In this document: one piece after another, positions 521 to 31,177 of the stretch
Position numbering within the stretch: position 1 is the first letter of the stretch
How the letters are laid out: every line of letters starts with the position of its first letter
Source of the DNA: Alteromonas arenosi
Lineage (GTDB): Bacteria; Pseudomonadota; Gammaproteobacteria; Enterobacterales; Alteromonadaceae
Assembly (NCBI RefSeq): GCF_030362855.1
Contig: NZ_JAUCBP010000007.1
Coordinates: forward strand, 308,675 to 372,674
Length of the DNA stretch: 64,000 nt
Direction of reading: 5' to 3'
Program-made: the position numbers and the translations under genes
The notes under the pieces: generated by a model
What the model saw: the letters and a program-made list of their open reading frames with translations, nothing else
Told to the model about the DNA's origin: nothing
The model's database searches: none

Positions 521-542
521 GCAGATATCACAAGGACACCCA

Positions 543-1769
543 ATGAACTTTGATTATTCAGAAAAAACACAGGCGTTAATGGCTCAACTTGAGGCATTTA
601 TGCAAGAGCATGTATATCCGATTGAACAAGATTACATCCACGCAGTGGAAACCAACGCCAACCGTTGGCAAACACCTGCGATGATGGAAGAGCTTAAAGC
701 CAAAGCGAGAGCGGCTGGGCTTTGGAACTTGTTTTTACCTGAAGAATACAAACCTTATGGCGCGGGCTTAACTAATCTGGAATATGCGCCACTATGCGAG
801 ATTATGGGGCGCGTACCGTGGAGTGCGGAGATTTTTAACTGTAGCGCGCCAGATACTGGCAATATGGAAGTACTGGCGAAGTACGGCAATGATGCTCAGC
901 AAGAACAGTGGTTAAAGCCATTACTAAACGGTGAAATCCGTTCGGCTTTTGCTATGACTGAGCCAGCCGTTGCATCGTCTGATGCCACTAATATCGAAAC
1001 TGCAATTGTGCGCGAAGGCGATGAATACGTGATCAATGGTCGCAAGTGGTATACCTCAGGGGCCATGAACGAAAATTGTAAGATCATGGTCGTAATGGGA
1101 AAAACTGATCCATCCGCTGCACGCCATCAACAACAAAGCCAGATCCTAGTGCCAATGAATACACCGGGCGTAACCGTAGTTCGTCCAATGGCAGCTATGG
1201 GGCATTACGATGAGCCAGTGGGCCATGCCGAGGTACTGTTTGAAAATGTGCGTGTGCCAGCAAGCAATTTATTAGTGGGTGAGGGTAAAGGTTTTGAAAT
1301 TGCCCAAGGTCGCTTAGGGCCCGGCCGAATTCACCACTGTATGCGTCTTATCGGTGTTGCTCAGCGCGCGCTAGATGAAGCTTGCGTGCGCGTTGAAAAG
1401 CGTGTTGCCTTCGGTCAGCCATTGAGCAAACAGCAATCCGTAAGAGAAAGCATCGCACAAATGCATTGTGATATAGAACAGGCGCGATTGTTGACACTAA
1501 AAGCCGCAGATAAGATGGATAAATACGGCAATAAAGTCGCTCGTGACATCATTGCTGCAATAAAAATCGTGGCACCGAAAATGGCCTGTAAAGTCATCGA
1601 CGAGGCGATCCAAATGCACGGTGCCATGGGTACAAGCCAAGATACAACATTGGCCGCAGCCTATGCTTATGCGCGAACGGTGCGCTTAGCTGATGGCCCT
1701 GATCAAGTCCATATGATGCAGTTAGGCCGTAACTTAATCGCTGAAACTGCCGCGAAAATGGTGAAATAA
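543..1769 (+). CDS. Acyl-CoA dehydrogenase family protein (ACAD10/11-like).
   Basis: 408 aa with ACAD N, middle and C-terminal domain motifs (…[20 protein letters not shown]…; C-terminal [11 protein letters not shown]). There is an RBS-like GGACACC before the ATG. It is immediately followed by a phosphotransferase gene. Confidence 0.85.
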
Positions 1770-1772
1770 ACT

Positions 1773-2804
1773 ATGAGTCAATCATCTGAGTTGGTGCGGC
1801 TCGATGCGCTGAATCGCTATTTGCAGGAGCAGGGTGTCGATATTGGCCATGTGCAACGAGCAGATAAATTTAGCGGCGGGCAATCCAACCCGACGTTTAA
1901 AATTGCAACAGACAAAGGACAATACGTGCTGCGCCGTCAACCACCAGGGAAGTTGCTCAAGTCTGCCCACGCGGTTGACCGTGAGTTTCGGGTGATTGCC
2001 GCGTTACAAGACACCGATGTGCCTGTGCCTCAGGCAATACATCTGTGCACAGATACCGACGTATTGGGCGCCATGTTTTACATCATGGAATTCAAAGACG
2101 GTCGAATCTTTTGGCAAAGTGCATTACCCGAAATCACTGATGTAGTAGTTCGCACACAAATGTATGACGAAATGAATCGAGTACTGGCAAGTTTGCACAA
2201 CGTTGATGTGGAAGCTGCCGGGTTGGAAGACTACGGACGTCCCGGGAATTACTTTGAGCGTCAACTGCAACGCTGGACTAAACAATACAGAGCAGCCGAA
2301 ACCGAGCATATAGAAGATATTGAAGTATTAATGGATTGGCTGACCGTAAACCTACCAGAAGATGACGGACAGGTCTCTTTAGTTCACGGCGATTTCCGTC
2401 TTGACAATATGATGTTTGCCCCTGATGAACCAAGGGTTATTGCGGTATTAGATTGGGAGCTTTCGACTCTAGGGCACCCCTTTGCTGATTTAGCATATCA
2501 GTGCATGCAGCTGCGCTTACCCCATGATCTTGGCCATGCACCAGGGTTAGGTGGTTTGGATAGACAAGCGCTGGGCATTCCAAGTGAAGAAGAATACATC
2601 GCCAAGTATTGTGAGCGCCGCGGTATCGAACCTATCGATAATTGGCCGTTCTATTTGGCATTTAGCTTCTTCAGATTAGCGGCCATTGTACAAGGAGTGG
2701 TTAAGCGCGCCAAGATGGGGAACGCTTCGAATGCCAAGGCCGCAGCACTTGAATCGATGATGCGCCCTTTAGCTGCACACGCAGCAGCACTGATTAAAGA
2801 TTAA
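1773..2804 (+). CDS. Phosphotransferase (aminoglycoside-phosphotransferase/APH-like kinase) family protein.
   Basis: 343 aa with APH-type motifs (HGDFRLDNMMF, VLDWELSTLGHP). It is 4 bp downstream of the ACAD gene, mirroring the fused APH+ACAD architecture of ACAD10/11. Confidence 0.8.
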   Translation: MSQSSELVRLDALNRYLQEQGVDIGHVQRADKFSGGQSNPTFKIATDKGQYVLRRQPPGKLLKSAHAVDREFRVIAALQDTDVPVPQAIHLCTDTDVLGAMFYIMEFKDGRIFWQSALPEITDVVVRTQMYDEMNRVLASLHNVDVEAAGLEDYGRPGNYFERQLQRWTKQYRAAETEHIEDIEVLMDWLTVNLPEDDGQVSLVHGDFRLDNMMFAPDEPRVIAVLDWELSTLGHPFADLAYQCMQLRLPHDLGHAPGLGGLDRQALGIPSEEEYIAKYCERRGIEPIDNWPFYLAFSFFRLAAIVQGVVKRAKMGNASNAKAAALESMMRPLAAHAAALIKD

Positions 2805-2814
2805 GAGTAAAACT

Positions 2815-3792
2815 ATGAAAGCAATTGTATGTAATGAGTTTGGTCCCGTTGATGATTTGGAATACAAAGAGTTATCTGCGTTAGAGCCGGGTAAAGGTCA
2901 GGTCGTTGTTGATATTGCAGCAGCCGGGGTTAATTTCCCTGATGGTTTATTGGTGCAAGGGTTATATCAAATGAAACCTGAGCGACCTTTTATTCCTGGT
3001 AACGAAGTAGCAGGGACAATTTCCGCTATCGGTGAAGGTGTAGAGGGATGGCACGTAGGTCAACGGGTAATTGCACTTTGCATGTTAGGTGGCTATGCCG
3101 AACAAGTTGTGGTGCCGCAAACCCACATATTACCGTTACCTGAGCAAATTCCATTTGAAGAAGCAGCAGCATTGGTAACTGCCCACGCGACGGCACATCA
3201 CGCCTTAAAACAGCGCGCCAATATCCAACCGGGCGAGACGCTAGTAGTCACAGGTGCAGCTGGTGGTACAGGCTTGGCTGCGGTCCAGATTGGTAAGGAA
3301 TTGGGCGCTACAGTTATCGCTGTTTGTTCTACGGCTGAGAAGCTCGCAACCGCTAAAGAGAACGGTGCGGATATTCTGATTAACTACACCGAAGAAAACC
3401 TTAAAGATGCAATAAAACAAGCGACCAACGGCAAGGGCGCAGATGTTGTTTACGAGTGTGTGGGTGGTGATACCTTCCATGCCTGTAGTCGCAGTATGGC
3501 TTGGAACGGTAGATTGCTAGTCATTGGTTTCGCCGGTGGTGAAATCCCAGAATTTCCAGTCAACCTATCCTTAGTCAAAGGATACTCAGTAGTGGGAGTG
3601 TTCTGGGGCTCATTTACTCAGCACCAACCGAAAGACTTTGCCGCGAATATGCAAGAGTTATTGACTTGGTATGTACAGGGTAAAGTGAAAGTCGTGGTCG
3701 ATGAATGTTTGCCGCTGTCAAAGGCTAAACAAGCGCTTGAAAAAGTCATGGGCCGAGAAGTGCGCGGTAAAATGGTGCTTAAGCCTGATTAG
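2815..3792 (+). CDS. NADPH:quinone oxidoreductase / zeta-crystallin-like MDR oxidoreductase.
   Basis: 325 aa with an MDR fold and a GAAGGTG Rossmann motif (VTGAAGGTGLAAVQIGK). A hairpin plus T-run terminator follows at 3812–3838. Confidence 0.8.
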   Translation: MKAIVCNEFGPVDDLEYKELSALEPGKGQVVVDIAAAGVNFPDGLLVQGLYQMKPERPFIPGNEVAGTISAIGEGVEGWHVGQRVIALCMLGGYAEQVVVPQTHILPLPEQIPFEEAAALVTAHATAHHALKQRANIQPGETLVVTGAAGGTGLAAVQIGKELGATVIAVCSTAEKLATAKENGADILINYTEENLKDAIKQATNGKGADVVYECVGGDTFHACSRSMAWNGRLLVIGFAGGEIPEFPVNLSLVKGYSVVGVFWGSFTQHQPKDFAANMQELLTWYVQGKVKVVVDECLPLSKAKQALEKVMGREVRGKMVLKPD

Positions 3793-3861: not shown

Positions 3862-4402
3862 ACCATGTTGAAACATGGTGGTAGCCGAGGCTACCGAATT
3901 AGTTGCTTAGATGCGCTCAGCGACTACAGCGGCTACTGGATTGTCAGCAAGACCTTGCTCAGCGATCCACGCTTGTAGTGTTTTACCATCCTGCTCTGGC
4001 TCCGCTAAATCCTTTTTTGGCATTTTCTTAACCAGTAGAGTCCCGGCTTCTACAGCATTGTTAAGCAATGCAGTGCGAATAAGGCTGTTACCGCCACAGC
4101 TCACACCTGAGTAGTAATCTTGAAGCTTAAGGTTGTAGTCAGACTGAACCTTTTTCATTTTCTTACGCAATTGGCCTTTGTCGTCAGCTTTAACGATAGA
4201 GCAAATGTTTTGTAGGGCTTCGTTAACGTCTGCTTGCGCAGTACCTGTGAACATTAAAGAAGCAGCGGCGATAGCGATAGAAGTTTTAACTACTTTCAAC
4301 ATGGTTAATTCCTCGGTTAATAATTAGTTGATGCGTTTGAACGGTTTTAATTAAAGCCCAAGGCGAAAAAGAAAAAAATCTGTGGGTCGATACATAGGTA
4401 TT
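3862..4402. repeat. Copy A of a ~540 bp direct repeat that carries the 131-aa secreted-protein gene.
   Basis: Near-identical to 13388–13927, with about 15 substitutions and one indel. Identity begins at accatgttgaaacatggtggtagccgagg and ends at gatacataggtat. Confidence 0.9.
3907..4302 (-). CDS. Small secreted protein, copy A (131 aa, Sec signal peptide, two Cys; possibly a DUF3718-like family).
   Basis: The N-terminus MLKVVKTSIAIAAASLMFTGTAQA|D is a classic signal peptide. An identical protein is encoded at 13433–13828. An RBS-like aggaattaacc precedes the start. Confidence 0.7.
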   Translation of the reverse strand: MLKVVKTSIAIAAASLMFTGTAQADVNEALQNICSIVKADDKGQLRKKMKKVQSDYNLKLQDYYSGVSCGGNSLIRTALLNNAVEAGTLLVKKMPKKDLAEPEQDGKTLQAWIAEQGLADNPVAAVVAERI

Positions 4403-4486
4403 TTAAATAATACCTATTGAGAGGCGTTAGCTTAAGAAGAAAATAGGGTGCACCGAATTTCAGTGCACCGCAGTGTGCTTATCGGC

Positions 4487-5254
4487 TTACCAGGCTGACA
4501 CACCGCCATCAACGGCAATGGTTTGGCCGTTCATGTAGGTGTTGCCGGGTGATAGCATCATTAACATTACGTTGACCATTTCTTGTGGATCGCCCAAGCG
4601 TTTCATCGGGCTGCCCATTGCCATTCGCGCTCGGTCTTTTTCGGAGTTAAACCCATCAACATTAAGGATATTCGTTGGGCTAAAAAATGGACATATGGCG
4701 TTACAACGCACATTTAATCGACCATATTCAATTGCTGCGGTGCGTGTTAGGCCTGCAACTGCATGTTTAGCTGCTACGTAGGCACCGCCTTTGGGCGCAC
4801 CGCCAATACCCGCCATAGAACTTACATTGAGTATATGGCCTTTACCATTCGCCAGCATGGCTTGGATCTGATATTTCATACCATACATTACGCCTTTGAC
4901 ATTAATATCAATTTGACGATCCAGAATCGCTTCAGTGAGTTCATGTATGGCAGCCGGATCATGCGCCACACCGGCATTGTTAACGGCACTGTCTAATTTG
5001 CCAAAAGTGTCGACGGCCGTCTTAACCATGGTCGCGCACTCAGCTTCAGAAGACACGTCATTTTTCATAGATGTAACGCGCTGAGCGGGGACATTGAGTT
5101 GTTTAACCGTTTCAGCCAAGCCTGCCTCGTCAATATCGCCCAAGACTAAATTGGCGCCACGGCTGGCTAGTCCAATTGCAAGTAAACGACCGAAACCGCT
5201 CGCGGCGCCTGTGATTAACACGGTGTGATCAGTAAAATCGAGTAACGGATCCAT
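4487..5254 (-). CDS. Short-chain dehydrogenase/reductase (SDR) family oxidoreductase.
   Basis: 255 aa with TGAASGFGR (TGxxxGxG) and a YVAAKHAV (YxxxK) catalytic motif. Confidence 0.85.
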   Translation of the reverse strand: MDPLLDFTDHTVLITGAASGFGRLLAIGLASRGANLVLGDIDEAGLAETVKQLNVPAQRVTSMKNDVSSEAECATMVKTAVDTFGKLDSAVNNAGVAHDPAAIHELTEAILDRQIDINVKGVMYGMKYQIQAMLANGKGHILNVSSMAGIGGAPKGGAYVAAKHAVAGLTRTAAIEYGRLNVRCNAICPFFSPTNILNVDGFNSEKDRARMAMGSPMKRLGDPQEMVNVMLMMLSPGNTYMNGQTIAVDGGVSAW

Positions 5255-5269
5255 AGTTTTGCTACCTTG

Positions 5270-6184
5270 TTATTTAATCGGGTTTTGTGTGAGGAAATTT
5301 AAAATAATATTGGCAAATACTTCGCCTTGATCTTCTTGAACAAAGTGGCCACCTTGTTCAATGGTTGTATGCGCTTGGCCCTCACATCCCGGTATGAGTT
5401 TGCGCATAATTTTATCGCCTCCAGCCGTCACCGGGTCGGAATCACTAAAGGCGCATAAGAACGGTCTATTAAAACCTTGTAAGCCTTGCCACGCTTTGCG
5501 ATTGGCATCACTGGCAGGATCATCTGGACTTACCGGCACTAAGGTGGGGAATTGTCGTGCACCTGCTTTGTACGATTCATCGGGGTAGGGCGCATCGTAG
5601 GCTGCATAAATTTCAGGTGTTAGCGGGGTTACCGTAGCACCTTTTATAATTCCGGCCGCAGGAAATACGTCGACCTCTTGAGAAAAAGCCTTCCATTTAA
5701 AGAACGCTTCTCCAGGAGGGTGATCGCCGGTCGGTAACATGGTATTAGACGCAACAACACGGGCAAATCGCTCAGGTTGCTCACCGACTAAACGCAGGCC
5801 TAATAAGCCTCCCCAATCCTGACAAACTAAAGTGATATCAGTTAGTTGTAGCTGATCAAGCAATTGAGTAACCCAATCAAGATGGCGTTGATAGGTATAA
5901 TCAGATCGTTCAGTGGGTTTATCTGAGCGCCCAAAGCCAATTAGGTCAGGCACGATCACGCGATATCCCGCCGCAGTCAGTGGCGTAATCATTTTGCGAT
6001 ACAAATAGGCCCAGCTAGGTTCACCGTGTTGCATCCAGATTACTTCACCATCACGCGGGCCTTCATCGATGAAATGCATGCGTAATTGGCCGCCTTCAAA
6101 GTCGTCCACTTCGATGTAATGAGGCGTAAAATCGTACCCAGGTAAGTTACTAAAACGTTCGTCTGGAGTCCGCAGTGCTTGCAT
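5270..6184 (-). CDS. Haloalkane dehalogenase (HLD-I, DhlA-like alpha/beta hydrolase).
   Basis: 304 aa. The N-terminal region (RTPDERFSNLPGYDFTPHYIEVD…WMQHGEPSWAYLYRKMI…GFGRSDKP) closely resembles Xanthobacter DhlA. The nucleophile and halide-stabilising DW are present in VCQDWGG. The catalytic His is present in GGHFVQED. Confidence 0.8.
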   Translation of the reverse strand: MQALRTPDERFSNLPGYDFTPHYIEVDDFEGGQLRMHFIDEGPRDGEVIWMQHGEPSWAYLYRKMITPLTAAGYRVIVPDLIGFGRSDKPTERSDYTYQRHLDWVTQLLDQLQLTDITLVCQDWGGLLGLRLVGEQPERFARVVASNTMLPTGDHPPGEAFFKWKAFSQEVDVFPAAGIIKGATVTPLTPEIYAAYDAPYPDESYKAGARQFPTLVPVSPDDPASDANRKAWQGLQGFNRPFLCAFSDSDPVTAGGDKIMRKLIPGCEGQAHTTIEQGGHFVQEDQGEVFANIILNFLTQNPIK

Positions 6185-6420
6185 AGTTTGTTACTCACTT
6201 TTTGGCGTTCATACATTGCCATTAAACAAATAAGCTCAAGAGGGTCAATGAATTTAAATCAGACTAAAAGTACGGAAATATCCCTAGCCCGCATCGGTAA
6301 ACGAATTGTTAATAGTATTGATTTAATTTATTCAGAAATATAAAACCAATAAACTTCACTGATTGGTGGACAGGTCATACCATGCTCTTCAATTAATGCA
6401 TAAGTAGAAGAGTTTCGTTT

Positions 6421-8520
6421 ATGAGCCAATCAGCTGTTGCCTATTCCGTTCAACAATCAGTCGCGTCGTTAATAATGCACAATCCACCGGTTAATGCGCT
6501 GGGTAAAGCCGTTCGAGTGGGGCTTGTCGAGGGAATTGAAAAAGCCCTAGCCGATGATGCGGTAAAAGTAATTGTGATCACATCAGATATTGGATTCTTT
6601 AGCGGCGGTGCTGATATATCGGAATTTTCTACGGGCGATTTCGAGCCAAACTTATCTACTGTGGTATTACACGCCATTGAACAATCGACTAAGCCTGTTG
6701 TGGCGGTATTGCCGGGGCCAGCGTTTGGTGGTGGTCTAGAGTTGGCATTGGCGTGTCACTATCGCATCACGCACAAGGCTAACAAGGTTGGGTTACCAGA
6801 AGTCAATCTGGGCATTCTTCCAGGCGCCGGCGGTACACAGCGTCTTCCTCGTTTGGTTCCGGTACAACAAGCGTTAGACATGGTTGTGTCTGGTCGTCCG
6901 CAATCAGTTACTAAGCTGCCAAGTGTTTTTGCAGAAATTGTCGATTCAGTAGAGCAACTTCCCGCTGCAACCCAAACCTTCATCGAGAACTTGGATTTAA
7001 CCGCGGATATTCCACGTACATGCGACATCACCGTTGATTCAGCGAGCTTTGATCCTGCATTGTTTGAGCAATATGCCGAAGGTATTAAGAAACAAGCACG
7101 CGGTTTCTTTGCGCCATTTAACTGTATCAAAGCCGTACAAGCAGCTACTGAGCTACCATTCCCGGAAGGCCTACAACGTGAAGGTGAATTGTTCTTAGAA
7201 TGCATGCAAACATCACAAGCACGTGCTCAGCAACATTTCTTTTTTGCCGAACGTGCCGCCGGGCATGTGCAAGACTACGACAAATCAACGCCTGTCCGCG
7301 ACATCAAGAAAGTCGCTGTTATCGGTGCCGGTACCATGGGTGGCGGTATTGCAATGAACTTTGCTAATGCTGGCATTCCGGTAACTATGCTCGAACTTCA
7401 ACCGGAAGCCTTGGAGAAAGGCTTAAGTGTCATCCGAGGCAACTACGAGCGCACTGCCAAAAAAGGTAAGTTGACAGCAGAAGATGTTGAAAAGCGCATG
7501 TCATTACTGACGGGTACAACCAGCTATGCGGATTTGGCCGATGTTGATTTAGTTATCGAAGCCGTATTCGAGAAGATGGAAGTCAAGCAAGCGGTGTTTA
7601 AATCGCTCGACGAAGTTTGTAAACCCGGTGCAATTTTAGCGACAAATACTTCAACACTCGACATTAATGAAATTGCTGCGGCAACAAGTCGTCCGCAAGA
7701 CGTTATTGGCTTGCACTTCTTCTCACCTGCAAACGTGATGAAGCTGCTTGAAATTGTTAAAGCAGAGCACACAGCACCTGAAGTTATCAAGACTTGCATG
7801 CAAATGGCCAAAATCATTCGAAAAGTCGCCGTATTAGTGGGTGTGTGTTTCGGTTTTGTGGGTAACCGTATGATCGAAGCCTATGGGCGTGAAGCAAACC
7901 GATTGATGCTAGAAGGCGCAACACCAGAGCAGGTTGACAAAGTCATTTATAAGTTCGGTTTACCTATGGGGCCATTTACCATGGGTGATATGGCGGGCTT
8001 GGATATTGGCTATTTTGTGCGTCAGTCACGTAAAGCCTTTATCGAACACGATCCAAGTTATTGTGTGGTAGCCGATAAATTGGTTGAAGATGGTCGTGTG
8101 GGGCTGAAAGCAGGTAAGGGCGTTTATCTTTATGAGCCTGGCAATCGTCAACCCATTCCAGACGAGAGCGTGCTTGAAATAGCGAAGCAAGAAGCTGCGC
8201 GTCTTGGTATCGAACAACGCAAAATTAGCGACCAAGAAATCCTTGAGCGCTGCATCTATCCATTGATTAACGAAGGCGCTCTGATCCTCGAAGAGGGCAT
8301 TGCTGCCAAAGCCAGCGATATTGACGTTATCTACGTGTATGGCTATGGCTTCCCAGTGTATCGCGGTGGCCCAATGAAGTTCGCTGACGAGATTGGTTTA
8401 GATAAAGTTCTCACAGCAATGAATAAATATCGCGAGCAATTAGGCGACTACGGTGAAGCGTGGTTTAAGCCTGCCCCCTTGTTAGAAAAGCTCGCTCAGC
8501 AAGGTAAAACTTTTAACTAA
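6421..8520 (+). CDS. Fatty-acid oxidation complex alpha subunit (FadB/FadJ-like fused enoyl-CoA hydratase/3-hydroxyacyl-CoA dehydrogenase).
   Basis: 699 aa with an N-terminal crotonase fold ([11 protein letters not shown]…[11 protein letters not shown]) and a C-terminal 3-HAD domain with the NAD-binding motif [12 protein letters not shown]. Confidence 0.85.
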
Positions 8521-8560
8521 TACATTTCAAGGCTTGAATCGAGCCTTACTAGGAGGACAC

Positions 8561-9742
8561 ATGCGTCAGGCAGTTATCGTATCAACCGCACGAAGCCCAA
8601 TCGGGCGTGCGTATAAAGGCGCTTTAAACAACCTTGAAGCACCGTCACTAGGCGGGCATTCGATTGCCGCTGCAGTAAAGCGTGCAGGTCTTGAAGGGCA
8701 GGAAGTCGATGACGTGATTATGGGTTCAGCCTTAACCCAAGGTTCAGGCTCGATGAACATTGGTCGCTTAGCCGGATTAGCTGGCGGTTTGCCGGTTACG
8801 GTTTCCGGCATGACGCTTGATCGCCAATGTAGCTCTGGCATGTACGCCATTGCCACTGCTGCACAAAGCATTATGACAGGCAATACCGACATTATGGTTG
8901 CCGGTGGTTTGGATTCAATTTCATTGGTGCAAAACAAGCACATGAATACCTTCCGAATGACCGATCCTGCATTAATCGCGAAGCACAAAGATATCTATAT
9001 GCCGATGCTGCAAACCGCCGAAGTTGTAGCGAAGCGCTATAACGTGAGTCGCGACGCGCAAGATGAGTATGGTTATCAAAGCCAGATGCGCACCGCAGCA
9101 GCACAAGCGGCAGGCAAATTTAATGATGAAATTGTACCGATCACCGCTAACAAGGCGATTGTTGATAAAGAGACGGGCGATGTAAGTTTTGCCGAGGTGA
9201 CGCTTGCAAAAGATGAAGGCAATCGCGCCGAAACCACGCTTGAAGGTTTACAAGGGCTGAATGCGGTTATCGAAGGCGGCTGTATTACAGCAGGTAACGC
9301 CAGTCAGTTGTCAGACGGTTCAAGTGCGAGCGTTCTGATGAGCGATGTTGAAGCGGAGAAACGCGGTCTAGACCCGCTTGGCGCCTTTAAAGGTATTGCG
9401 GTTGCGGGTTGTGAGCCGGATGAAATGGGTATTGGTCCGGTCTTCGCAGTGCCTAAATTACTTAAGCAGCACGGGTTAACGATGGATGACATCGGTCTGT
9501 GGGAGCTGAATGAAGCCTTCGCGGTTCAGGTTTTATATTGCCGTGACAAGCTGGGTATTCCTGATGAGTTGCTCAACGTAAACGGCGGGGCAATCTCTAT
9601 TGGACACCCCTATGGCATGAGTGGTGCCAGAATGGTGGGGCATGCCTTAATTGAAGGAAAACGACGTGGTGCAAAATATGTAGTGTGTACCATGTGTATC
9701 GGTGGCGGCATGGGCGCCGCTGGTTTATTTGAAGTGTTATAA
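8561..9742 (+). CDS. Acetyl-CoA C-acyltransferase (thiolase, FadA-like).
   Basis: Thiolase active-site motifs are present ([28 protein letters not shown]). The start is placed at the ATG at 8561, preceded by AGGAGG at 8551–8556. The ORF-track start at 8534 lacks an RBS. Confidence 0.9.
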
Positions 9743-9757
9743 AACGGTTATACGACG

Positions 9758-11557
9758 ATGCAAAATTACAAAGCACCACAACGAGATACGTTGTTTACTT
9801 TATATGAATTATTGGGTTTTGAATCCCATTATGCAGATCTGGGCTTCGAAGAGGTCAGCAATGATCTTGTGACCGCTATTTTCTCTGAGGCGGCAAAATT
9901 TGCAGAAAATACTCTAGCACCAATCAATGCGGTTGGTGACGAGGAAGGTTGTGGCTTCGATAATGGCGTAGTGACTACACCTACAGGTTTCAAAGAAGCC
10001 TATCAGCAGTATGTAGAAGGCGGCTGGCCATCAATGGCGCACCCCGAAGAGTACGGCGGTCAAGCACTACCTTACTCACTGGCTACATCTATGGCGGAGT
10101 GGTTCTCAGGTGCTAACCACTCGTGGGCAATGTACCCAGGGTTGAGTCAAGGCTGTATGGAAACCTTGAAGGCGCACGGTACCGACAAGCAACGCGAGAT
10201 GTTCTTACACAAATTGGTTGAAGGTAGCTGGACCGGCACCATGTGTTTGACTGAACCACACTGTGGCTCTGATTTGGGTATGCTTAAGTGTAAAGCAGAA
10301 CCCAATGATGACGGCACGTACTCACTGACAGGCACTAAGATCTTTATCTCAGCGGGTGAACACGACATGTCTGAAAATATCGTGCATATCGTCTTAGCAC
10401 GTTTGCCAGACGCACCGGCAGGCACTAAAGGTATCTCATTGTTTATTGTGCCTAAGTATCACGTTGACGAGAACGGCGAGAAAGGTGAACGCAATACAGT
10501 TGTTTGCGGTTCGATTGAACACAAAATGGGTATCAAAGGCAGCGCAACATGTGTGATGAACTTTGATGGCGCTAAAGGTCACCTGATTGGTGAGCCTAAT
10601 CGCGGCCTCAATTGTATGTTTACCTTTATGAACATGGCGCGTATCGGCACGGGTATGGAAGGTTTATCAGCTATAGAAGCGGCATTCCAGGGGGCCTTGG
10701 CATACGCCAAAGATCGTTTGCAGTTCCGCTCATTAACCGGTCGTAAGAACGAATCAGGCCCAGCTGACCCAATCATCGTACATCCAGACGTGCGCCGCAT
10801 GTTGTTGACGCAAAAATCATTACGTGAGGGTTGTCGCGCACTGGCCATTTATTGCATGAAAATGGTTGATGTGACCTTGTACGAAAAAGATGCTGAGAAG
10901 CGTCAGATTGCTGATGCTAAGTTGGCCTTGCTAACGCCAATCGTTAAAGCATTCTTAACTGAAACCGCCCAAGAGTGCACCAGCTATGGTATGCAGGTGT
11001 ATGGAGGTCACGGCTACATTAAAGAGTGGGGCATGGAGCAACTTGCTCGTGATACACGTATTTGTACCATGTACGAAGGTACAACAGGTATCCAAGCGAT
11101 TGACCTATTGGCGCGTAAAGTGGTCGGTAGTCAAGGCAAGTTGCTACAGGTATTCACTCAAGAGATCCGCACCTATTGTGCGAGCTTACGCGACAAGCAG
11201 CAGTTTAATGCGTGGGCTAACGCGGTAGAAAGTCATGTCGACGAGTGGGAGCAGCTCACTAACGACATCATGAAATCTGCCGCTAATAATCCTGATGAAT
11301 TGGGTGCCGCGGCGGTAGACTACTTGATGTATTCTGGTTATGTATCAGTTTCGTATTTCTGGCTGCAAATGGCTGTCACAGCACAACAGAAGCTGGATGA
11401 AGGCAGCACAGAAGTTGACTTCTATCAGGCGAAGTTGCAATCAGCGCAGTTCTACTTTGATCGTATGCTTACTCGCACACGTTCATTGGTTTCAGCGATT
11501 CACTCAGGTGCTGACAACCTAATGAGTATGAGCGAAGAAGCTTTCTATCAAGGTTAA
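9758..11557 (+). CDS. Long (~600 aa) acyl-CoA dehydrogenase with a C-terminal extension domain.
   Basis: 599 aa with an ACAD core (…CLTEPHCGSDLG…YEGTTGIQAIDL…) plus a ~150 aa C-terminal domain, as in FadE-like long ACADs. Confidence 0.85.
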   Translation: MQNYKAPQRDTLFTLYELLGFESHYADLGFEEVSNDLVTAIFSEAAKFAENTLAPINAVGDEEGCGFDNGVVTTPTGFKEAYQQYVEGGWPSMAHPEEYGGQALPYSLATSMAEWFSGANHSWAMYPGLSQGCMETLKAHGTDKQREMFLHKLVEGSWTGTMCLTEPHCGSDLGMLKCKAEPNDDGTYSLTGTKIFISAGEHDMSENIVHIVLARLPDAPAGTKGISLFIVPKYHVDENGEKGERNTVVCGSIEHKMGIKGSATCVMNFDGAKGHLIGEPNRGLNCMFTFMNMARIGTGMEGLSAIEAAFQGALAYAKDRLQFRSLTGRKNESGPADPIIVHPDVRRMLLTQKSLREGCRALAIYCMKMVDVTLYEKDAEKRQIADAKLALLTPIVKAFLTETAQECTSYGMQVYGGHGYIKEWGMEQLARDTRICTMYEGTTGIQAIDLLARKVVGSQGKLLQVFTQEIRTYCASLRDKQQFNAWANAVESHVDEWEQLTNDIMKSAANNPDELGAAAVDYLMYSGYVSVSYFWLQMAVTAQQKLDEGSTEVDFYQAKLQSAQFYFDRMLTRTRSLVSAIHSGADNLMSMSEEAFYQG

Positions 11558-11564
11558 TTGGAAT

Positions 11565-12506
11565 ATGCCTGAACATAGCGATATTCAATCTTGTTATGTT
11601 CAGGCGAAAGGTCTGCGACTGCATTATTTAATGCGGTCGCCCATTTCTACAGAAACGCAAACTCCAACACTTATATTTCTGCACGGTTTTCCTGAGTATT
11701 CAGGCGTTTGGCATCATCAACTCGACTTCTTTGGTCAAATAGCACGCGCTATCGCACTAGATTTACCAGGTTATAACCGTAGTGAAGGTCCTGGTGCGTT
11801 AGCTGAATTTAGCGTACCGAATTTAGTAGAAATAGTAGCCGAATTTATTCGTCAGGTCAGTGATGGTCAGCCAGTGGTGTTGGTGGCGCATGATTGGGGG
11901 GGAGCGCTGGCATGGCCGTTGGCTGCTCGCTATCCTGAATTACTCAGTCATTTAATCATACTCAACGCTGCACATCCGAGTACTTTTACCCGCGAAATGA
12001 TGCAAAACCCAAAACAGCGTGCGATGAGTGATTACATTCATACGTTCTTATCAAGCGATGCTGAAAAAGCTCTGGCAGATGATGATTTCGCATTGCTCAA
12101 GCAACATTCGATAACGCATGTTAAGGGTGGCATCAGCCCCGAGTTAGAAACGGGTTATCGCGATTCTTGGCAATGCGACGGGGTCTTGACCCGTATGCTT
12201 AATTACTACCGCGCTATGCCACAGTTATTTCCGCGAGAGGGCAGCGACACGAGTAGCCTAGACAAGCAAAACGGCGGGCCAACCAAGCAGCTTGCTGATT
12301 TTAAAATCCCACAGATATATATTCGAGTTCCCACGCTTGTATTATGGGGCGAGCAAGATAGTGCGTTTGATATTAGCGTATTGGATGGATTATCAGAATA
12401 CATTGATGACTACACTGAGCAACGCTTTCCAGATGCAACACATTGGCTGCACCATGAAGAGCCAGAAGCTATCTCATCAGCAATTAGCCAGTTTTTGGCA
12501 CGCTGA
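11565..12506 (+). CDS. Alpha/beta-fold hydrolase (epoxide-hydrolase-like).
   Basis: 313 aa with HGFPE, an HDWGG nucleophile elbow, and a C-terminal His (ATHWLHHEEPE). Confidence 0.8.
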   Translation: MPEHSDIQSCYVQAKGLRLHYLMRSPISTETQTPTLIFLHGFPEYSGVWHHQLDFFGQIARAIALDLPGYNRSEGPGALAEFSVPNLVEIVAEFIRQVSDGQPVVLVAHDWGGALAWPLAARYPELLSHLIILNAAHPSTFTREMMQNPKQRAMSDYIHTFLSSDAEKALADDDFALLKQHSITHVKGGISPELETGYRDSWQCDGVLTRMLNYYRAMPQLFPREGSDTSSLDKQNGGPTKQLADFKIPQIYIRVPTLVLWGEQDSAFDISVLDGLSEYIDDYTEQRFPDATHWLHHEEPEAISSAISQFLAR

Positions 12507-12647
12507 TCTTCTATTTTTTTAAAACGATTAAGGTAAATACTTTACAGATCTGATCAGTTCTGTAAACTCTCGGCGTGCGAGGATTTGCAGATTTATCGCG
12601 ATGGATTGCAGTAAATAATAATAATGAATATACCCGGTGCGCAAAAA

Positions 12648-13325
12648 ATGAAAACCACAATAGTAGTATCGCTATTACTGTTTGCCAGTAGTAATCTATT
12701 TTTAACTCGAACGGTCCATGCGGCTTTAATCACTTTCGATAACACCACAGCGTCGACCACAAATCCTTATTTGCGGGCGACGAAAACCTATTTAGAAGAC
12801 GACTTTTTATTTACTTTTTTGGGTAAAGATACCAACTACCTGGACAGTAAATACGTTGGCTTCGATGGACTAACTGAATTCAATGGTGACGTTTTGCAAT
12901 TTGGTTGCTGTCGCTACTCAACGGTTACTATCACACATAAAGACAATCTGGCGTTTAACTTAAACAGTTTCTACAGTGGGACAACAAAGTCGAGCCCAAA
13001 TGACCAAGGCGACTTGTTTTTCAGAGCCACCTATAGCAACGGTAGCATTGTTGACAGTCAACGTTTTATTGCAAATCGGCGCATGCTACAAACGTTTGCA
13101 CAATTGCAAAATATTACATCGCTGATTATTAGTCGAAATTTATACGATGCGGTAATTGAAAACAGTTTTCCGGTTATCGATGATTTAGATTTGAGTCTCT
13201 ATACAGCACCGCGAATTGCAGCATTAAATTTTACGCCTCAACTCGCCATATCGAATGAACTAACCGAAGTGCCTGCGATGGCCATGATGTTAATCGGAGT
13301 TTTAGCGCTTCGACGGCGCAGGTAA
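12648..13325 (+). CDS. Secreted protein with a PEP-CTERM-like C-terminal sorting signal.
   Basis: The signal peptide is MKTTIVVSLLLFASSNLFLTRTVHA. The C-terminus is TEVPAMAMMLIGVLALRRRR, which reads as a PEP-like motif, a TM helix and an Arg cluster. The start is chosen at the second in-frame ATG at 12648; the track ORF begins at 12624. Confidence 0.45.
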   Translation: MKTTIVVSLLLFASSNLFLTRTVHAALITFDNTTASTTNPYLRATKTYLEDDFLFTFLGKDTNYLDSKYVGFDGLTEFNGDVLQFGCCRYSTVTITHKDNLAFNLNSFYSGTTKSSPNDQGDLFFRATYSNGSIVDSQRFIANRRMLQTFAQLQNITSLIISRNLYDAVIENSFPVIDDLDLSLYTAPRIAALNFTPQLAISNELTEVPAMAMMLIGVLALRRRR

Positions 13326-13387: not shown

Positions 13388-13927
13388 ACCATGTTGAAAC
13401 ATGGTGGTAGCCGAGGCTACCGAATTAGTTGCTTAGATGCGCTCAGCGACTACAGCGGCTACTGGGTTGTCAGCAAGACCTTGCTCTGCAATCCACGCTT
13501 GCAGCGTTTTACCATCCTGCTCTGGCTCCGCTAAATCCTTTTTTGGCATTTTCTTAACCAGTAGAGTCCCGGCTTCTACAGCATTGTTAAGCAATGCAGT
13601 GCGAATCAGGCTGTTACCGCCACAGCTCACACCTGAATAGTAATCTTGAAGTTTAAGGTTGTAGTCAGACTGAACCTTTTTCATTTTCTTACGCAATTGG
13701 CCTTTATCGTCAGCTTTAACGATAGAGCAAATGTTTTGTAGCGCTTCGTTAACGTCTGCTTGCGCAGTACCTGTGAACATTAAAGAAGCAGCGGCGATAG
13801 CGATAGAAGTTTTAACTACTTTCAACATGGTTAATTCCTCGGTTAATAATTAGTTGATGTGTTTGAACGGTTTTAATTAAAGCCCAAGGTGAAAAAGAAA
13901 AAAATCTGTGGGTCGATACATAGGTAT
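13388..13927. repeat. Copy B of the ~540 bp direct repeat.
   Basis: Near-identical to 3862–4402. The two copies are 9.5 kb apart and in the same orientation. Confidence 0.9.
13433..13828 (-). CDS. Small secreted protein, copy B (131 aa, identical in protein sequence to copy A).
   Basis: The translation is identical to 3907–4302. The ~12 nucleotide differences inside the CDS are all synonymous third-position changes. Confidence 0.7.
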   Translation of the reverse strand: MLKVVKTSIAIAAASLMFTGTAQADVNEALQNICSIVKADDKGQLRKKMKKVQSDYNLKLQDYYSGVSCGGNSLIRTALLNNAVEAGTLLVKKMPKKDLAEPEQDGKTLQAWIAEQGLADNPVAAVVAERI

Positions 13928-14775: not shown

Positions 14776-14810
14776 AGCCTATGCACCGCTTAATGCGGTG
14801 CATAGGCTTT
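14776..14810. terminator. Bidirectional hairpin between the lipoprotein gene and the convergent LysR gene.
   Basis: agcctatgcaccgc-ttaat-gcggtgcataggcttt: a 14 bp perfect stem. Confidence 0.5.
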
Positions 14811-15692
14811 ACAGACCTCACTTATTTGTTCACGCATCCACAAATGTGCGTGGTCGTGATCAGCACTAACGTGCCAATACAAAAAATACTCCACAGGCTG
14901 AATGTCGAACGGTAATTCAAATATCGATAAATCGTAATGTTTGGCTAAATGATAAGGTAAACAAGCGATAAGGTCAGTTTTTACGATCGCACTTGGTACG
15001 GTTAAGAAATGTTGTCCTCGCATTATTACTTTGCGTTTTTTACCTAATTTATCCAACTCAATGTCTATGGGGCCGGCGCCGCTTTTTCGGTGTGAGACAT
15101 TAATATGACCAAGCCGCAGGAATGTCTCCAAATCTAAACCATTTTTAAGTGCTGGGTGGTTTTTCCGAGCAATAACAACAAATCTATCTGACGCAATCTT
15201 TTGTTTACATAGGTGTGGATCGGTGAAGCTAGAAGCATCGGCGAAGAAATCCAAGCTACCGTTAGCCATTGACGATACTACTTGACTGCGCGCAATTTCG
15301 TAGTTGGTGAGCGTGACATTGGGCGCCACATTTTGTAAGCGCACCATCAAACGCGGCATGATACTGACTTCGAGTAAATCGCGGCTGGCGAAGTTAAAGG
15401 CTTTCTCGGAAATCGCGGGATCAAAAGTATGGCTTTGTTGCACACTTTTGCGCAACAAGCCCAGAGCCTGACGAGCTGGAACTATAATATTCTGTGCAAC
15501 AGGTGTCGGGGTCATGCTATGCCCAGTGCGCACGAATAAAGGGTCGTTCAACATTTCACGCAATCTAGCTAATGAGTTACTCACTGCCGGTTGCGTGATG
15601 CATAATACGTCGGCTGCTTTGGTTAGACTGCCGGCTGTATAAATAGCATCAAACACCGCGAAAAGGTTTAAGTCTATTCGGTTCAGGTTCAT
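14790..15692 (-). CDS. LysR-family transcriptional regulator.
   Basis: 300 aa with an N-terminal HTH (MNLNRIDLNLFAVFDAIYTAGSLTKAADVLCITQPAVSNSLARLRE) and a LysR substrate-binding domain. It is divergent from the MaoC-like gene. Confidence 0.9.
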   Translation of the reverse strand: MNLNRIDLNLFAVFDAIYTAGSLTKAADVLCITQPAVSNSLARLREMLNDPLFVRTGHSMTPTPVAQNIIVPARQALGLLRKSVQQSHTFDPAISEKAFNFASRDLLEVSIMPRLMVRLQNVAPNVTLTNYEIARSQVVSSMANGSLDFFADASSFTDPHLCKQKIASDRFVVIARKNHPALKNGLDLETFLRLGHINVSHRKSGAGPIDIELDKLGKKRKVIMRGQHFLTVPSAIVKTDLIACLPYHLAKHYDLSIFELPFDIQPVEYFLYWHVSADHDHAHLWMREQISEVCKAYAPH

Positions 15693-15831
15693 ATTTAGCT
15701 TCTATTCGTATTTTGGTACAAAGGGAGTGTAGCGTCTTTTAATTATTAATCGCTATTATAGAATGTGATTTGAAATATTCAGTAAATTAATAGTATAAAA
15801 ATGTAACTTTATCGCATTTAAGGACAATTTT

Positions 15832-16293
15832 ATGAGTACTACGTTGATAGATTTAGCCATTGGAGACGCATTACCGGCGTCGGATTGGATACCTGTCACA
15901 CAGCAAGCAATTGACACCTTTGCCGATGCAACAGGCGATCATCAGTGGATTCATGTTGATCCAAAGCGGTGCGCAACTCACAGTCCGTTCAAAACCACTA
16001 TTGCGCACGGTTTTTTTTCAGCATCATTGATGCCAAAAGCATTTGAAGGTGTTGTTACCTCTCATCCAGATATCGCGTCAGTCCTCAATTATGGGATCAA
16101 TTCACTGCGCTTTCTTGAACCGGTTCGAGTCAATGACCAAGTGAGATACATTTTCAAAGTAGCATCGATTGAGCAAAAGCCAACCGGACGTTTGTATACC
16201 TTTGATTGTGCGGTAGAAATCAAAGATCGTGAGAAGCCTGCATTGGTAGGTCAGTTTTTGATGCTAGCGATCATCCATTCCGTTTCTGGATGA
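15832..16293 (+). CDS. MaoC-like (R)-specific enoyl-CoA hydratase/dehydratase (hotdog fold).
   Basis: 153 aa with a hotdog MaoC pattern (…DHQWIHVDPKRCATHSPFKTTIAHGFF…). Confidence 0.75.
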   Translation: MSTTLIDLAIGDALPASDWIPVTQQAIDTFADATGDHQWIHVDPKRCATHSPFKTTIAHGFFSASLMPKAFEGVVTSHPDIASVLNYGINSLRFLEPVRVNDQVRYIFKVASIEQKPTGRLYTFDCAVEIKDREKPALVGQFLMLAIIHSVSG

Positions 16294-30777: not shown

Positions 30778-30937
30778 GGCTCACTACTCAAGATATCAAT
30801 AAAAATACAAAGCTATCACAAATGATATAAATGTGGCTATTTTAAGTTGGTGTCACTTTTCTGTTTTTCAGCGATTAAAAATAAATAAGTAAATAAAAAC
30901 ATATAGATAGGGTTTTTATTTGATGTTTTTTCAAAAC

Positions 30938-31152: not shown

Positions 31153-31177
31153 ATGTAAAAACTGGATAAGACTTAGC

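What the first reader, a model, noticed from the sequence alone, without database searches (positions are those of the whole stretch)
4487..12506. A DhlA-like haloalkane dehalogenase embedded in a beta-oxidation/SDR cluster: a candidate pathway for halogenated alkane or fatty-acid catabolism.
The HLD-I dehalogenase shares the N-terminal region RTPD.RFSNL..Y.F.P.Y…HGEP.W.YLYRKMIP and retains the D-W nucleophile pair plus the catalytic His. It is adjacent to an SDR (alcohol to aldehyde/ketone oxidation). It is divergent from fadB-like, thiolase, a long ACAD and an epoxide-hydrolase-like alpha/beta hydrolase. Immediately upstream is a split ACAD10/11-like pair (ACAD + APH kinase) and a quinone oxidoreductase.

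This arrangement fits a route of haloalkane to alcohol to acid to beta-oxidation for marine halogenated or long-chain compounds. The second alpha/beta hydrolase (11565–12506) might handle epoxides or halohydrins.
Basis: partly seen in the sequence, partly recalled or inferred. Interest (0 to 1): 0.55.

Follow-up and report, generated by a model that had tools for sequence, protein, structure and literature searches.

The report
Haloalkane dehalogenase beside a beta-oxidation operon
A textbook, already annotated haloalkane dehalogenase gene sits next to fatty-acid-breakdown genes, an arrangement kept within one family of marine bacteria; this makes a pathway link plausible but unproven, and the find is fairly ordinary.

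Summary
ORF 5270-6184(-) is a full-length subfamily I haloalkane dehalogenase (HLD-I). It scores 481 bits on NCBIfam NF002043 and has the complete Asp-His-Asp + Trp-Trp pentad. It is about 65% identical to the solved DpcA-type enzyme and 42% to DhlA. NCBI already annotates it in Alteromonas sp. ASW11-36.

It is followed after 15 bp by an SDR and then a terminator-like hairpin. It faces a FadB/J-like, thiolase, 599-aa ACAD and epoxide-hydrolase-like operon. A split ACAD11-like kinase/ACAD pair lies next door.

The pathway reading is only partly supported.
- For: the divergent arrangement recurs in Alteromonas, Paraglaciecola, Aliiglaciecola and an Alteromonadaceae isolate, with a conserved palindrome at the FadB/J promoter. 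In sister genera an acyl-CoA synthetase follows the SDR. A Colwellia locus has the same gene set in a different order.
- Against: about 72 HLD orthologue loci from other taxa lack these neighbours. The beta-oxidation cluster is widespread without an HLD. Two Alteromonadaceae loci keep everything except the HLD. The family's HLDs form one clade, so inherited gene order suffices. The 64-kb window holds no aldehyde dehydrogenase, primary-alcohol dehydrogenase or acyl-CoA synthetase.

Verdict: a new member of a known kind, of modest interest.

The parts
5270..6184 (-). Haloalkane dehalogenase, subfamily HLD-I (DpcA/DmrA clade), 304 aa. Pentad: D123 (nucleophile), H280 (base), D250 (acid), W124 and W164 (halide binding).
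   Evidence: NCBIfam NF002043 480.9 bits, cut-off 265. PDB 6f9o E=1.5e-138, 4mj3 E=2e-132, DhlA 1edb E=4e-56. Pentad aligned to DhlA and invariant in 94 of 94 relatives. 100% identical to the NCBI entry 'haloalkane dehalogenase [Alteromonas sp. ASW11-36]'.
4487..5254 (-). Classical SDR oxidoreductase, 255 aa (TGAASGFG, NNAG at 92, Y159-x3-K163). Second gene of the HLD operon. Substrate unknown.
   Evidence: Pfam adh_short_C2 E=9e-57. No NCBIfam model reaches its cut-off. Best solved relatives are generic secondary-alcohol/ketone SDRs. 15-bp gap and ribosome-binding site after the HLD stop. Orthologues of 56-66% identity in all syntenic loci and in the HLD-less loci.
4447..4469 (-). Terminator-like hairpin plus T-run, 18 bp after the SDR stop. 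Marks the end of the HLD-SDR transcription unit.
   Evidence: Consensus scan: 10-pair stem, 6 GC pairs. This is a pattern match only.
6185..6420 (.). 236-bp divergent promoter region. It contains a family-conserved block with the palindrome CCAAT-N11-ATTGG at 6346-6366, about 55-75 bp upstream of the FadB/J-like start codon.
   Evidence: Alignment of seven intergenic regions. The exact pattern occurs once in the window. The pattern AATCA-N6-TTTATTGNT occurs in 9 of 162 fetched loci, all Alteromonadaceae-type, including HLD-less L083.
6421..8520 (+). FadB/FadJ-like multifunctional enoyl-CoA hydratase plus 3-hydroxyacyl-CoA dehydrogenase, 699 aa.
   Evidence: Pfam ECH_1, 3HCDH_N, 3HCDH. FadJ/FadB NCBIfam models score 477 and 445 bits, below their cut-offs of about 870.
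8534..9742 (+). Acetyl-CoA C-acyltransferase (thiolase), 402 aa.
   Evidence: NCBIfam NF005494 618.9 bits, cut-off 615.
9758..11557 (+). Long acyl-CoA dehydrogenase, 599 aa, with the PF12806 C-terminal domain.
   Evidence: Pfam. Orthologues of 75-79% identity in syntenic loci.
11565..12506 (+). Epoxide-hydrolase-like alpha/beta hydrolase, 313 aa. Residues: HGFP 40-43, nucleophile D110, Y157 and Y215, D265, H293. Starts 8 bp after the ACAD stop.
   Evidence: PDB 4o08/4inz 'soluble epoxide hydrolase' E=8e-50 over the full length. Motif positions.
543..2804 (+). Neighbouring module: split ACAD10/11-like pair, ACAD (543-1769) then APH-type kinase (1773-2804). Flanked by a histidine phosphatase (8-520) and a PIG3-type quinone oxidoreductase (2815-3792).
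   Evidence: 8v3u/8v3v ACAD11 E=2e-129 (ACAD domain) and E=1e-78 (kinase domain). The same four genes sit in the same place in L080, L081 and L082.
3862..4401 (-). Left copy of a ~540-bp direct repeat carrying a DUF3718 gene (3907-4302). It brackets the cluster.
   Evidence: the proteins are 100% identical, the DNA about 98% identical, and the spacing is 9526 bp.
13388..13927 (-). Right copy of the direct repeat, carrying the second DUF3718 gene (13433-13828).

Best explanation
Shown by sequence: this is a genuine HLD-I haloalkane dehalogenase in a chromosomal lipid-catabolism locus of Alteromonadaceae.

Enzyme mechanism, taken from established HLD chemistry: D123 attacks the halogen-bearing carbon by SN2. 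W124 and W164 hold the leaving halide. Water activated by H280/D250 hydrolyses the alkyl-enzyme ester. The products are an alcohol, a halide ion and a proton.

Gene organisation: the HLD is the accessory first gene of a short operon, HLD-SDR. In sister genera the operon is HLD-SDR-acyl-CoA synthetase. Its promoter region is shared, back to back, with an operon encoding one full beta-oxidation turn (ACAD, hydratase/dehydrogenase, thiolase) plus an epoxide-hydrolase-like enzyme.

Inferred: the two operons serve one purpose. They strip unusual substituents (halogen, perhaps epoxide) from aliphatic chains such as bromo- or chloro-alkanes or halogenated fatty acids of algal origin, and feed the chains to beta-oxidation. 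The neighbouring ACAD11-like module does the same for 4-hydroxyacyl-CoA.

The enzyme assignment is near certain. The coupling to beta-oxidation is an inference from conserved adjacency and a shared promoter region.
For: Enzyme:
- NF002043 scores 481 bits against a cut-off of 265.
- All best solved relatives are HLD-I enzymes.
- The pentad is complete and invariant in 94 relatives.

Operon: 15-bp gap, ribosome-binding site and a terminator-like hairpin after the SDR.

Coupling:
- The divergent arrangement is kept in Alteromonas, Paraglaciecola, Aliiglaciecola and Alteromonadaceae bacterium M269, although the genes beyond the SDR differ.
- Fifteen further contigs appear to carry both an HLD and a FadB/J homologue. 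This is judged only from identical longest-contig lengths.
- A conserved palindrome lies in the shared promoter region.
- An acyl-CoA synthetase follows the SDR in L001-L003, L025, L163 and L164.
- In Colwellia L008 an HLD from a different branch of the tree ends a co-directional nine-gene run: APH, SDR (56% identical), ACAD, MaoC, SDR, thiolase, acyl-CoA synthetase, oxidoreductase, HLD. Orthologues of the epoxide-hydrolase-like gene and the long ACAD lie nearby.
Against: - In about 72 of 80 HLD orthologue loci from other taxa (Pseudomonas, Psychrobacter, Mycolicibacterium, Acidimicrobiia, Chloroflexota and others) none of these neighbours is present, and no dominant neighbour exists.
- Acyl-CoA genes near the HLD in those loci are no more frequent than I would roughly expect by chance. 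This is my estimate, not a formal test.
- FadB/J-thiolase(-ACAD) clusters are widespread without an HLD.
- L083 and Aliiglaciecola lipolytica L165 keep the SDR-synthetase and beta-oxidation operons but lack the HLD. The palindrome is present in L083, the one of the two where it was searched.
- The Alteromonadaceae HLDs form one clade, so vertical inheritance of gene order is a sufficient explanation.
- The 64-kb window has no aldehyde dehydrogenase, primary-alcohol dehydrogenase, acyl-CoA synthetase or uptake gene.
- There are no expression or activity data.
Confidence: 0.5

Rival explanations
1. Neighbours by descent only. The HLD is a free-standing scavenging or detoxifying enzyme that landed once, in an ancestor of Alteromonadaceae, in front of an SDR gene beside a housekeeping beta-oxidation operon. 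It has stayed there through inertia. There is no shared pathway.
For: The HLD clade is monophyletic within the family. HLD orthologues elsewhere are solitary or have unrelated neighbours. The HLD is dispensable in L083 and L165 while the rest is unchanged. The palindrome stays with the FadB/J promoter in L083, where the HLD is absent. Pathway steps are missing. The locus sits among core genes with no compositional anomaly.
Against: Adjacency survives across genera whose outer flanks have been reshuffled. The HLD is in an operon with the SDR and, in sister genera, an acyl-CoA synthetase. Colwellia has the same gene set around a differently placed HLD.
Confidence: 0.35
2. A 'functionalised lipid' island. 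The real substrates are carboxylic acids or CoA esters carrying odd groups, not free haloalkanes. The HLD removes halogen from halogenated fatty acids. The epoxide-hydrolase-like enzyme opens epoxy fatty acids. The ACAD11-like kinase/ACAD pair removes 4-hydroxyl groups. The SDR oxidises the resulting secondary alcohols. The beta-oxidation trio then shortens the chain.
For: Three enzymes for chain substituents are co-located with a beta-oxidation set. ACAD10/11 are documented to phosphorylate 4-hydroxyacyl-CoA and eliminate the phosphate, giving entry to beta-oxidation (PMC12440821, PMC11342911). An acyl-CoA synthetase sits in the HLD operon in sister genera. A classical SDR suits secondary alcohols. 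No aldehyde dehydrogenase is needed if the substrate already has a carboxyl group.
Against: To my knowledge no HLD has been shown to prefer halogenated fatty acids or CoA esters. The ACAD11-like module adjoins the cluster only in the window and the three Alteromonas-type loci L080-L082 among the loci examined. All of this is inference from co-location.
Confidence: 0.2
3. The protein is an HLD-fold enzyme with a different physiological reaction, such as ester or epoxide hydrolysis. Dehalogenation would then be at most promiscuous.
For: Natural substrates of most HLDs are unknown (my own knowledge). The gene sits in a lipid locus beside an epoxide-hydrolase-like paralogue.
Against: Both halide-binding tryptophans and the whole pentad are invariant in 94 relatives spanning several phyla. 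That pattern is expected only if halide binding is under selection. The protein is about 65% identical to an enzyme deposited as a haloalkane dehalogenase.
Confidence: 0.05

Closest known systems
DpcA-type haloalkane dehalogenase (PDB 6f9o). I attribute this entry to Psychrobacter cryohalolentis K5 from memory and from its 82-88% identity to Psychrobacter loci.
   Same: HLD-I. 64.6% identity over 302 residues, same length, identical pentad positions D123/W124/W164/D250/H280.
   Different: In the Psychrobacter loci (L013, L017-L020, L029) the gene has none of the beta-oxidation, SDR or epoxide-hydrolase neighbours.
DmrA-type HLD-I (PDB 4mj3). I attribute this entry to Mycobacterium rhodesiae JS60 from memory and from its 77-79% identity to Mycolicibacterium loci. 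Fung et al. 2015 is cited in PMC10503415.
   Same: 60.9% identity and the same pentad. It belongs to a strain reported to grow on haloalkanes (title of Fung et al. 2015, seen).
   Different: Actinobacterial host. No shared neighbours in L027, L028 or L034.
   Same: HLD-I fold and pentad; the N-terminal RTPD..RF and HGEP.W.YLYRKMIP motifs.
   Different: Only 42% identity. The cap region is 10 residues shorter in the window protein, and F128, L262 and L263 of DhlA are L, V and T here. From my own knowledge, dhlA is plasmid-borne and serves 1,2-dichloroethane catabolism.
Rhodococcus dhaA haloalkane-catabolic cluster (dhaR-dhaA-adhA-aldA). Recalled from the literature, not tested here.
   Same: The idea of an HLD clustered with enzymes that oxidise its alcohol product.
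   Different: That HLD is subfamily II, with dedicated alcohol and aldehyde dehydrogenases, on a mobile plasmid. Here there is no aldehyde dehydrogenase, the partner is an SDR, and the locus is chromosomal and vertically inherited.
Mammalian ACAD10/ACAD11 and the bacterial LvaA/LvaC-type 4-hydroxyacyl-CoA pathway (PMC12440821, PMC11342911).
   Same: The neighbouring ACAD (543-1769) and APH kinase (1773-2804) match the two domains of ACAD11 at E=2e-129 and E=1e-78.
   Different: Two separate genes, in the order ACAD then kinase, accompanied by a histidine phosphatase and a quinone oxidoreductase. This is a neighbour of the finding, not part of the HLD operon.

Membership tests
Haloalkane dehalogenase subfamily I (HLD-I) | Catalytic triad Asp (nucleophile), His (base), Asp (acid after strand beta7) | tested here: met
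   D123, H280 and D250 align with DhlA D124, H289 and D260. Invariant in 94 of 94 relatives. Definition taken from PMC6920932.
Haloalkane dehalogenase subfamily I (HLD-I) | Halide-stabilising pair Trp-Trp (not the Asn-Trp of HLD-II and HLD-III) | tested here: met
   W124 and W164 align with DhlA W125 and W175. Invariant in 94 of 94.
Haloalkane dehalogenase subfamily I (HLD-I) | Full-length match to the curated family model above its cut-off, and closer to HLD-I than to HLD-II or HLD-III representatives | tested here: met
   NF002043 scores 480.9 bits (cut-off 265). The other two curated HLD models, NF002938 and NF002873, score 131 and 85 bits, below their cut-offs. The nine best PDB sequences are HLD-I enzymes (E from 1e-138 to 4e-56). 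DhaA- and LinB-type enzymes score about 1e-28.
Haloalkane dehalogenase subfamily I (HLD-I) | Hydrolytic halide release from haloalkanes | not testable with these tools
   Needs purified enzyme and a halide-release assay.
Dedicated haloalkane catabolic operon (HLD + alcohol dehydrogenase + aldehyde dehydrogenase, substrate-responsive regulator) | Alcohol dehydrogenase for the HLD product in the same transcription unit | tested here: inconclusive
   An SDR follows the HLD. It matches no specific family above cut-off and resembles secondary-alcohol/ketone SDRs.
Dedicated haloalkane catabolic operon (HLD + alcohol dehydrogenase + aldehyde dehydrogenase, substrate-responsive regulator) | Aldehyde dehydrogenase and acid activation (acyl-CoA synthetase) linked to the HLD | tested here: not met
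   None of the ORFs I annotated in the window is an aldehyde dehydrogenase or an AMP-binding enzyme. An acyl-CoA synthetase does follow the SDR in Paraglaciecola, Aliiglaciecola and M269 loci.
Dedicated haloalkane catabolic operon (HLD + alcohol dehydrogenase + aldehyde dehydrogenase, substrate-responsive regulator) | Cluster conserved as a unit wherever the HLD orthologue occurs | tested here: not met
   Conserved in Alteromonadaceae and, rearranged, in one Colwellia locus. Absent in about 72 other HLD loci.
Beta-oxidation operon (ACAD + hydratase/3-hydroxyacyl-CoA dehydrogenase + thiolase) | All three activities of one beta-oxidation turn encoded co-directionally | tested here: met
   Pfam domains of 6421-8520, 8534-9742 and 9758-11557. 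The thiolase is above its equivalog cut-off. The FadB/FadJ equivalog cut-offs are not reached (477 against 869), so this is a FadB/J-like paralogue, not FadB or FadJ proper.
Alpha/beta-fold epoxide hydrolase (for 11565-12506) | HGXP oxyanion motif, Asp nucleophile, two ring-opening Tyr residues, His-Asp charge relay | tested here: met
   HGFP 40-43, D110, Y157, Y215, D265 and H293 align with the corresponding residues of 4o08. This is my own count on the alignment, with positions. Activity was not tested.
ACAD10/11-type 4-hydroxyacyl-CoA kinase/eliminase (for 543-2804) | APH-type kinase together with an atypical ACAD homologous to the ACAD11 domains | tested here: met
   E=1e-78 (kinase) and E=2e-129 (ACAD) to 8v3v/8v3u. 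Here they are split into two genes. Activity was not tested.

The most novel reading that the evidence does not exclude
In marine Alteromonadales, DpcA-type HLD-I enzymes are regular, co-regulated components of a fatty-acid catabolic regulon. Their natural substrates would be biogenic halogenated lipids or alkyl halides made by algae. The HLD-SDR(-acyl-CoA synthetase) operon, the epoxide-hydrolase-like enzyme and the ACAD11-like module would together form a 'de-functionalise, then beta-oxidise' system. That would give haloalkane dehalogenases a physiological role, which has long been unclear.
Probability: 0.2. Interest if true: 0.6.

Novelty: new member of a known kind. Interest (0 to 1): 0.3.

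Why it matters
Haloalkane dehalogenases are heavily used in biotechnology (bioremediation, biosensors, HaloTag), yet their natural substrates and cellular roles are mostly unknown. A family-wide, operon-level link to fatty-acid breakdown in alga-associated marine bacteria would give a concrete, testable idea of what they are for. On present evidence the link is plausible but could simply reflect inherited gene order. The enzyme itself is a routine, already annotated member of its family.

Tried and rejected
1. I looked for the intergenic palindrome elsewhere in the window, to define a regulon. There is one exact site, and the one-mismatch count is no better than shuffles. No regulon could be inferred and the regulator stays unidentified.

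2. I tested whether the syntenic HLDs are polyphyletic, since repeated capture at one locus would argue for selection. The neighbour-joining tree shows a single Alteromonadaceae clade, so I rejected this. The tree has no bootstrap.

3. I looked for a universal neighbour of HLD-I orthologues by clustering the four genes on each side in 80 loci. None dominates. Enoyl-CoA hydratase, ACAD, APH and acyl-CoA synthetase genes appear in about 15 non-syntenic loci. By my rough estimate that is what abundant acyl-CoA paralogues would give by chance, and their density does not clearly rise towards the HLD.

4. I considered horizontal transfer or a mobile island. GC content is unremarkable and the surroundings are core genes such as pntAB, nusA-infB-truB and aconitase. 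Rejected.

5. Literature searches for HLD gene context in Alteromonas, Paraglaciecola or Colwellia, or for a link to beta-oxidation, found nothing specific. One search on PDB codes and short enzyme names was uninformative. The DpcA papers are not held.

6. One context look-up (Hahella FadB/J homologue P0182) returned nothing.
Full report
**What is in the sequence.**
The window comes from Alteromonas sp. ASW11-36. ORF 5270-6184(-) is 100% identical to that organism's NCBI protein named 'haloalkane dehalogenase'. The ORF map with Pfam and NCBIfam scans gives this order:
- histidine phosphatase, 8-520
- ACAD, 543-1769
- APH-type kinase, 1773-2804
- PIG3-type quinone oxidoreductase, 2815-3792
- DUF3718, 3907-4302(-)
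- SDR, 4487-5254(-)
- HLD, 5270-6184(-)
- FadB/J-like, 6421-8520
- thiolase, 8534-9742
- 599-aa ACAD with a PF12806 tail, 9758-11557
- alpha/beta hydrolase, 11565-12506
- a signal-peptide protein with a PEP-CTERM-like tail, 12624-13325
- a second DUF3718, 13433-13828(-)

**The dehalogenase.**
- It matches NCBIfam NF002043 end to end at 480.9 bits (cut-off 265). The other two curated HLD models score 131 and 85 bits.
- Its nine best solved relatives are all subfamily I enzymes: 6f9o, 4mj3, 5esr, 2xt0, 7avr and DhlA. HLD-II enzymes follow at about 1e-28.
- 5esr is DccA, 2xt0 is DppA and 7avr is DpaA according to PMC10619424.
- 6f9o is 82-88% identical to Psychrobacter loci and 4mj3 is 77-79% identical to Mycolicibacterium loci. 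That fits my recollection that they are DpcA and DmrA.
- I aligned the protein with DhlA, whose sequence I verified against 1edb. The HLD-I pentad as defined in PMC6920932 is complete: D123, H280, D250, W124, W164.
- The pentad is invariant in all 94 relatives I collected.
- Identity is 64.6% to 6f9o, 60.9% to 4mj3 and 42% to DhlA. 'DpcA/DmrA-like' is therefore the more accurate label.

**Local organisation.**
- The HLD stop and the SDR start are 15 bp apart, with an AAGGTAG ribosome-binding site.
- A hairpin plus T-run follows the SDR stop at 4469-4447. The likely unit is therefore HLD-SDR.
- The four plus-strand genes are separated by 8-15 bp.
- The last of them is epoxide-hydrolase-like: E=8e-50 to 4o08/4inz over its full length, with HGFP, D110, Y157, Y215, D265 and H293 in place.
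- The upstream ACAD and kinase are homologues of the two domains of ACAD11, at E=2e-129 and E=1e-78. ACAD10/11 phosphorylate 4-hydroxyacyl-CoA and eliminate the phosphate, admitting these acids to beta-oxidation (PMC12440821, PMC11342911).
- None of the ORFs I annotated in the rest of the window is an aldehyde dehydrogenase, a primary-alcohol dehydrogenase, an acyl-CoA synthetase or an alkane oxygenase. Those genes are housekeeping or signalling genes, and composition is even.

**Is the cluster conserved? HLD-centred view.**
I scanned one genome per species with an HLD alignment, which returned 80 loci with 56-72% identical HLDs. I then searched them with 17 window proteins.
- The arrangement 'epoxide-hydrolase-like, ACAD, thiolase, FadB/J, divergent from HLD, SDR' is kept in six loci, all Alteromonadaceae: three Paraglaciecola, one Aliiglaciecola and two Alteromonas.
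- A. naphthalenivorans-type contigs share the entire 13-kb layout, including the ACAD11-like module.
- Paraglaciecola T6c-type and Alteromonadaceae M269 loci have HLD-SDR-acyl-CoA synthetase facing the same operon.
- About 72 loci from Pseudomonas, Psychrobacter, Pseudomaricurvus, Haliea, Mycolicibacterium, Acidimicrobiia, Chloroflexota, Binatia and others have none of these neighbours.
- Clustering the four genes on each side shows no dominant partner. The largest non-syntenic group is a PF00884 sulfatase, in seven loci.

**Is the cluster conserved? Beta-oxidation-centred view.**
I scanned metagenomes with a FadB/J alignment and ran the same protein search.
- FadB/J-thiolase, often with a PF12806-type ACAD and an SDR downstream, is widespread without any HLD.
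- L083 (FadB/J 72% identical) and Aliiglaciecola lipolytica E3 (L165) have the SDR-acyl-CoA synthetase operon facing the beta-oxidation operon with no HLD.
- The HLD is thus an optional first gene added to, or lost from, an SDR operon.
- A neighbour-joining tree puts all Alteromonadaceae HLDs in one clade. The A. gracilis/A079/naphthalenivorans branch is long. This explains why the window enzyme is nominally closer to a Pseudomonas HLD (70%) than to those Alteromonas HLDs (57-60%). One gain followed by vertical descent and occasional loss is the simplest history.

**Evidence bearing on functional coupling.**
- The 236-bp divergent region contains a block conserved in all syntenic loci, CCAATCA-N4-A-N-TTTATTGGTTTTAT. 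The window has the palindrome CCAAT-N11-ATTGG at 6346-6366, 55-75 bp before the FadB/J start.
- That block occurs in 9 of 162 fetched loci, all Alteromonadaceae-type, including HLD-less L083. It therefore belongs to the FadB/J and SDR promoter region, not to the HLD as such. I could not identify the regulator, and the site is unique in the window.
- The best independent support is Colwellia sp. C2M11 (L008). There an HLD from a different branch of the tree ends a co-directional run of APH, SDR (56% identical to the window SDR), PF12806 ACAD, MaoC, SDR, thiolase, acyl-CoA synthetase, NADPH oxidoreductase and HLD. An enoyl-CoA hydratase, an orthologue of the epoxide-hydrolase-like gene (46%) and one of the long ACAD (59%) lie within 8 kb. 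The same gene set in a different order is harder to ascribe to inertia alone. It is, however, a single locus.

**Interpretation.**
- Enzyme assignment: about 0.9 that this is a true HLD-I dehalogenase working by the standard SN2, alkyl-enzyme and hydrolysis mechanism.
- Coupling to beta-oxidation: about 0.5 that the HLD operon and the beta-oxidation operon serve one purpose, against about 0.35 that they are neighbours by descent only.
The SDR suits secondary alcohols. An acyl-CoA synthetase sits in the operon in sister genera. There is no aldehyde dehydrogenase. An epoxide-hydrolase-like enzyme and a 4-hydroxyacyl-CoA module lie alongside.
- None of this can be settled without assays and expression data.

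**Novelty and score.**
The gene is already annotated and closely resembles characterised enzymes. What is new is the description of a family-level conserved context with presence/absence variation of the HLD. I found no paper describing it. I rate it a new member of a known kind, interest 0.3.

Noticed in passing
window 3862-4401 and 13388-13927: A ~540-bp direct repeat (about 98% identical) brackets the whole 9.5-kb SDR-HLD / beta-oxidation segment. Each copy carries a DUF3718 gene for an identical 131-aa secreted protein, and the DNA differences inside the ORF are all synonymous. DUF3718 copies also accompany the cluster in L025, L072 (three), L080 (two), L165 (three), L081, L163 and L164. 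Recombination between the copies would delete or amplify the cluster.
   Followed up: partly
window 8-3792: Histidine phosphatase, ACAD, APH kinase and quinone oxidoreductase. The ACAD and kinase are a split homologue of mammalian ACAD11 (E=2e-129 and 1e-78), implying a bacterial 4-hydroxyacyl-CoA entry route. The same four genes sit in the same place in L080, L081 and L082.
   Followed up: partly
L083 6964-7953; L165 4864-6001: Two Alteromonadaceae loci (a metagenome contig and Aliiglaciecola lipolytica E3) have the SDR-acyl-CoA synthetase operon directly facing the FadB/J operon with no HLD. The conserved palindrome was confirmed in L083. The HLD therefore shows presence/absence variation at a fixed site.
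   Followed up: yes
L008 253-18581 (Colwellia sp. C2M11): Nine co-directional genes end in the HLD: APH, SDR, PF12806 ACAD, MaoC, SDR, thiolase, acyl-CoA synthetase, ADH_N_2 oxidoreductase, HLD. On the other strand lie an enoyl-CoA hydratase, GST, SBF transporter, DUF2855, an epoxide-hydrolase-like gene and a nitroreductase. A long ACAD follows.
   Followed up: partly
L004, L006, L035, L051, L064, L068, L071 (gene next to or near the HLD): A ~675-aa PF00884 sulfatase lies beside the HLD orthologue in seven loci from Pseudomonas, Acidimicrobiales, Chloroflexota and Actinomycetota. Only one representative was checked with Pfam. Both enzymes release a leaving group from an alkyl chain to give an alcohol.
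   Followed up: partly
L140 about 6008-6913: In a metagenome contig, an HLD-like gene (42% identical, pentad intact, E55 replaced by N) lies between the thiolase and the ACAD of a FadB/J-thiolase-ACAD-SDR cluster. This is a second, unrelated case of an HLD inside a beta-oxidation cluster.
   Followed up: partly
window 12624-13325: A 233-aa ORF with no Pfam match and no counterpart in any related locus. It has an N-terminal signal peptide and a C-terminal VPA-hydrophobic-RRRR tail resembling a PEP-CTERM sorting signal.
   Followed up: no
window 14790-16293: A divergent LysR regulator and MaoC dehydratase pair lies just beyond the cluster. The LysR is 82% identical in L025, and a LysR is also present at the edge of L165. 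The T-N11-A form of the FadB/J-promoter palindrome would suit a LysR-type protein, but I did not test this.
   Followed up: no
window 29173-35959: An RNA-repair locus: sigma-54 activator RtcR, divergent from a Band7/SPFH protein, an RlaP nucleotidyltransferase, the RtcB ligase and a PcfJ-like protein.
   Followed up: no
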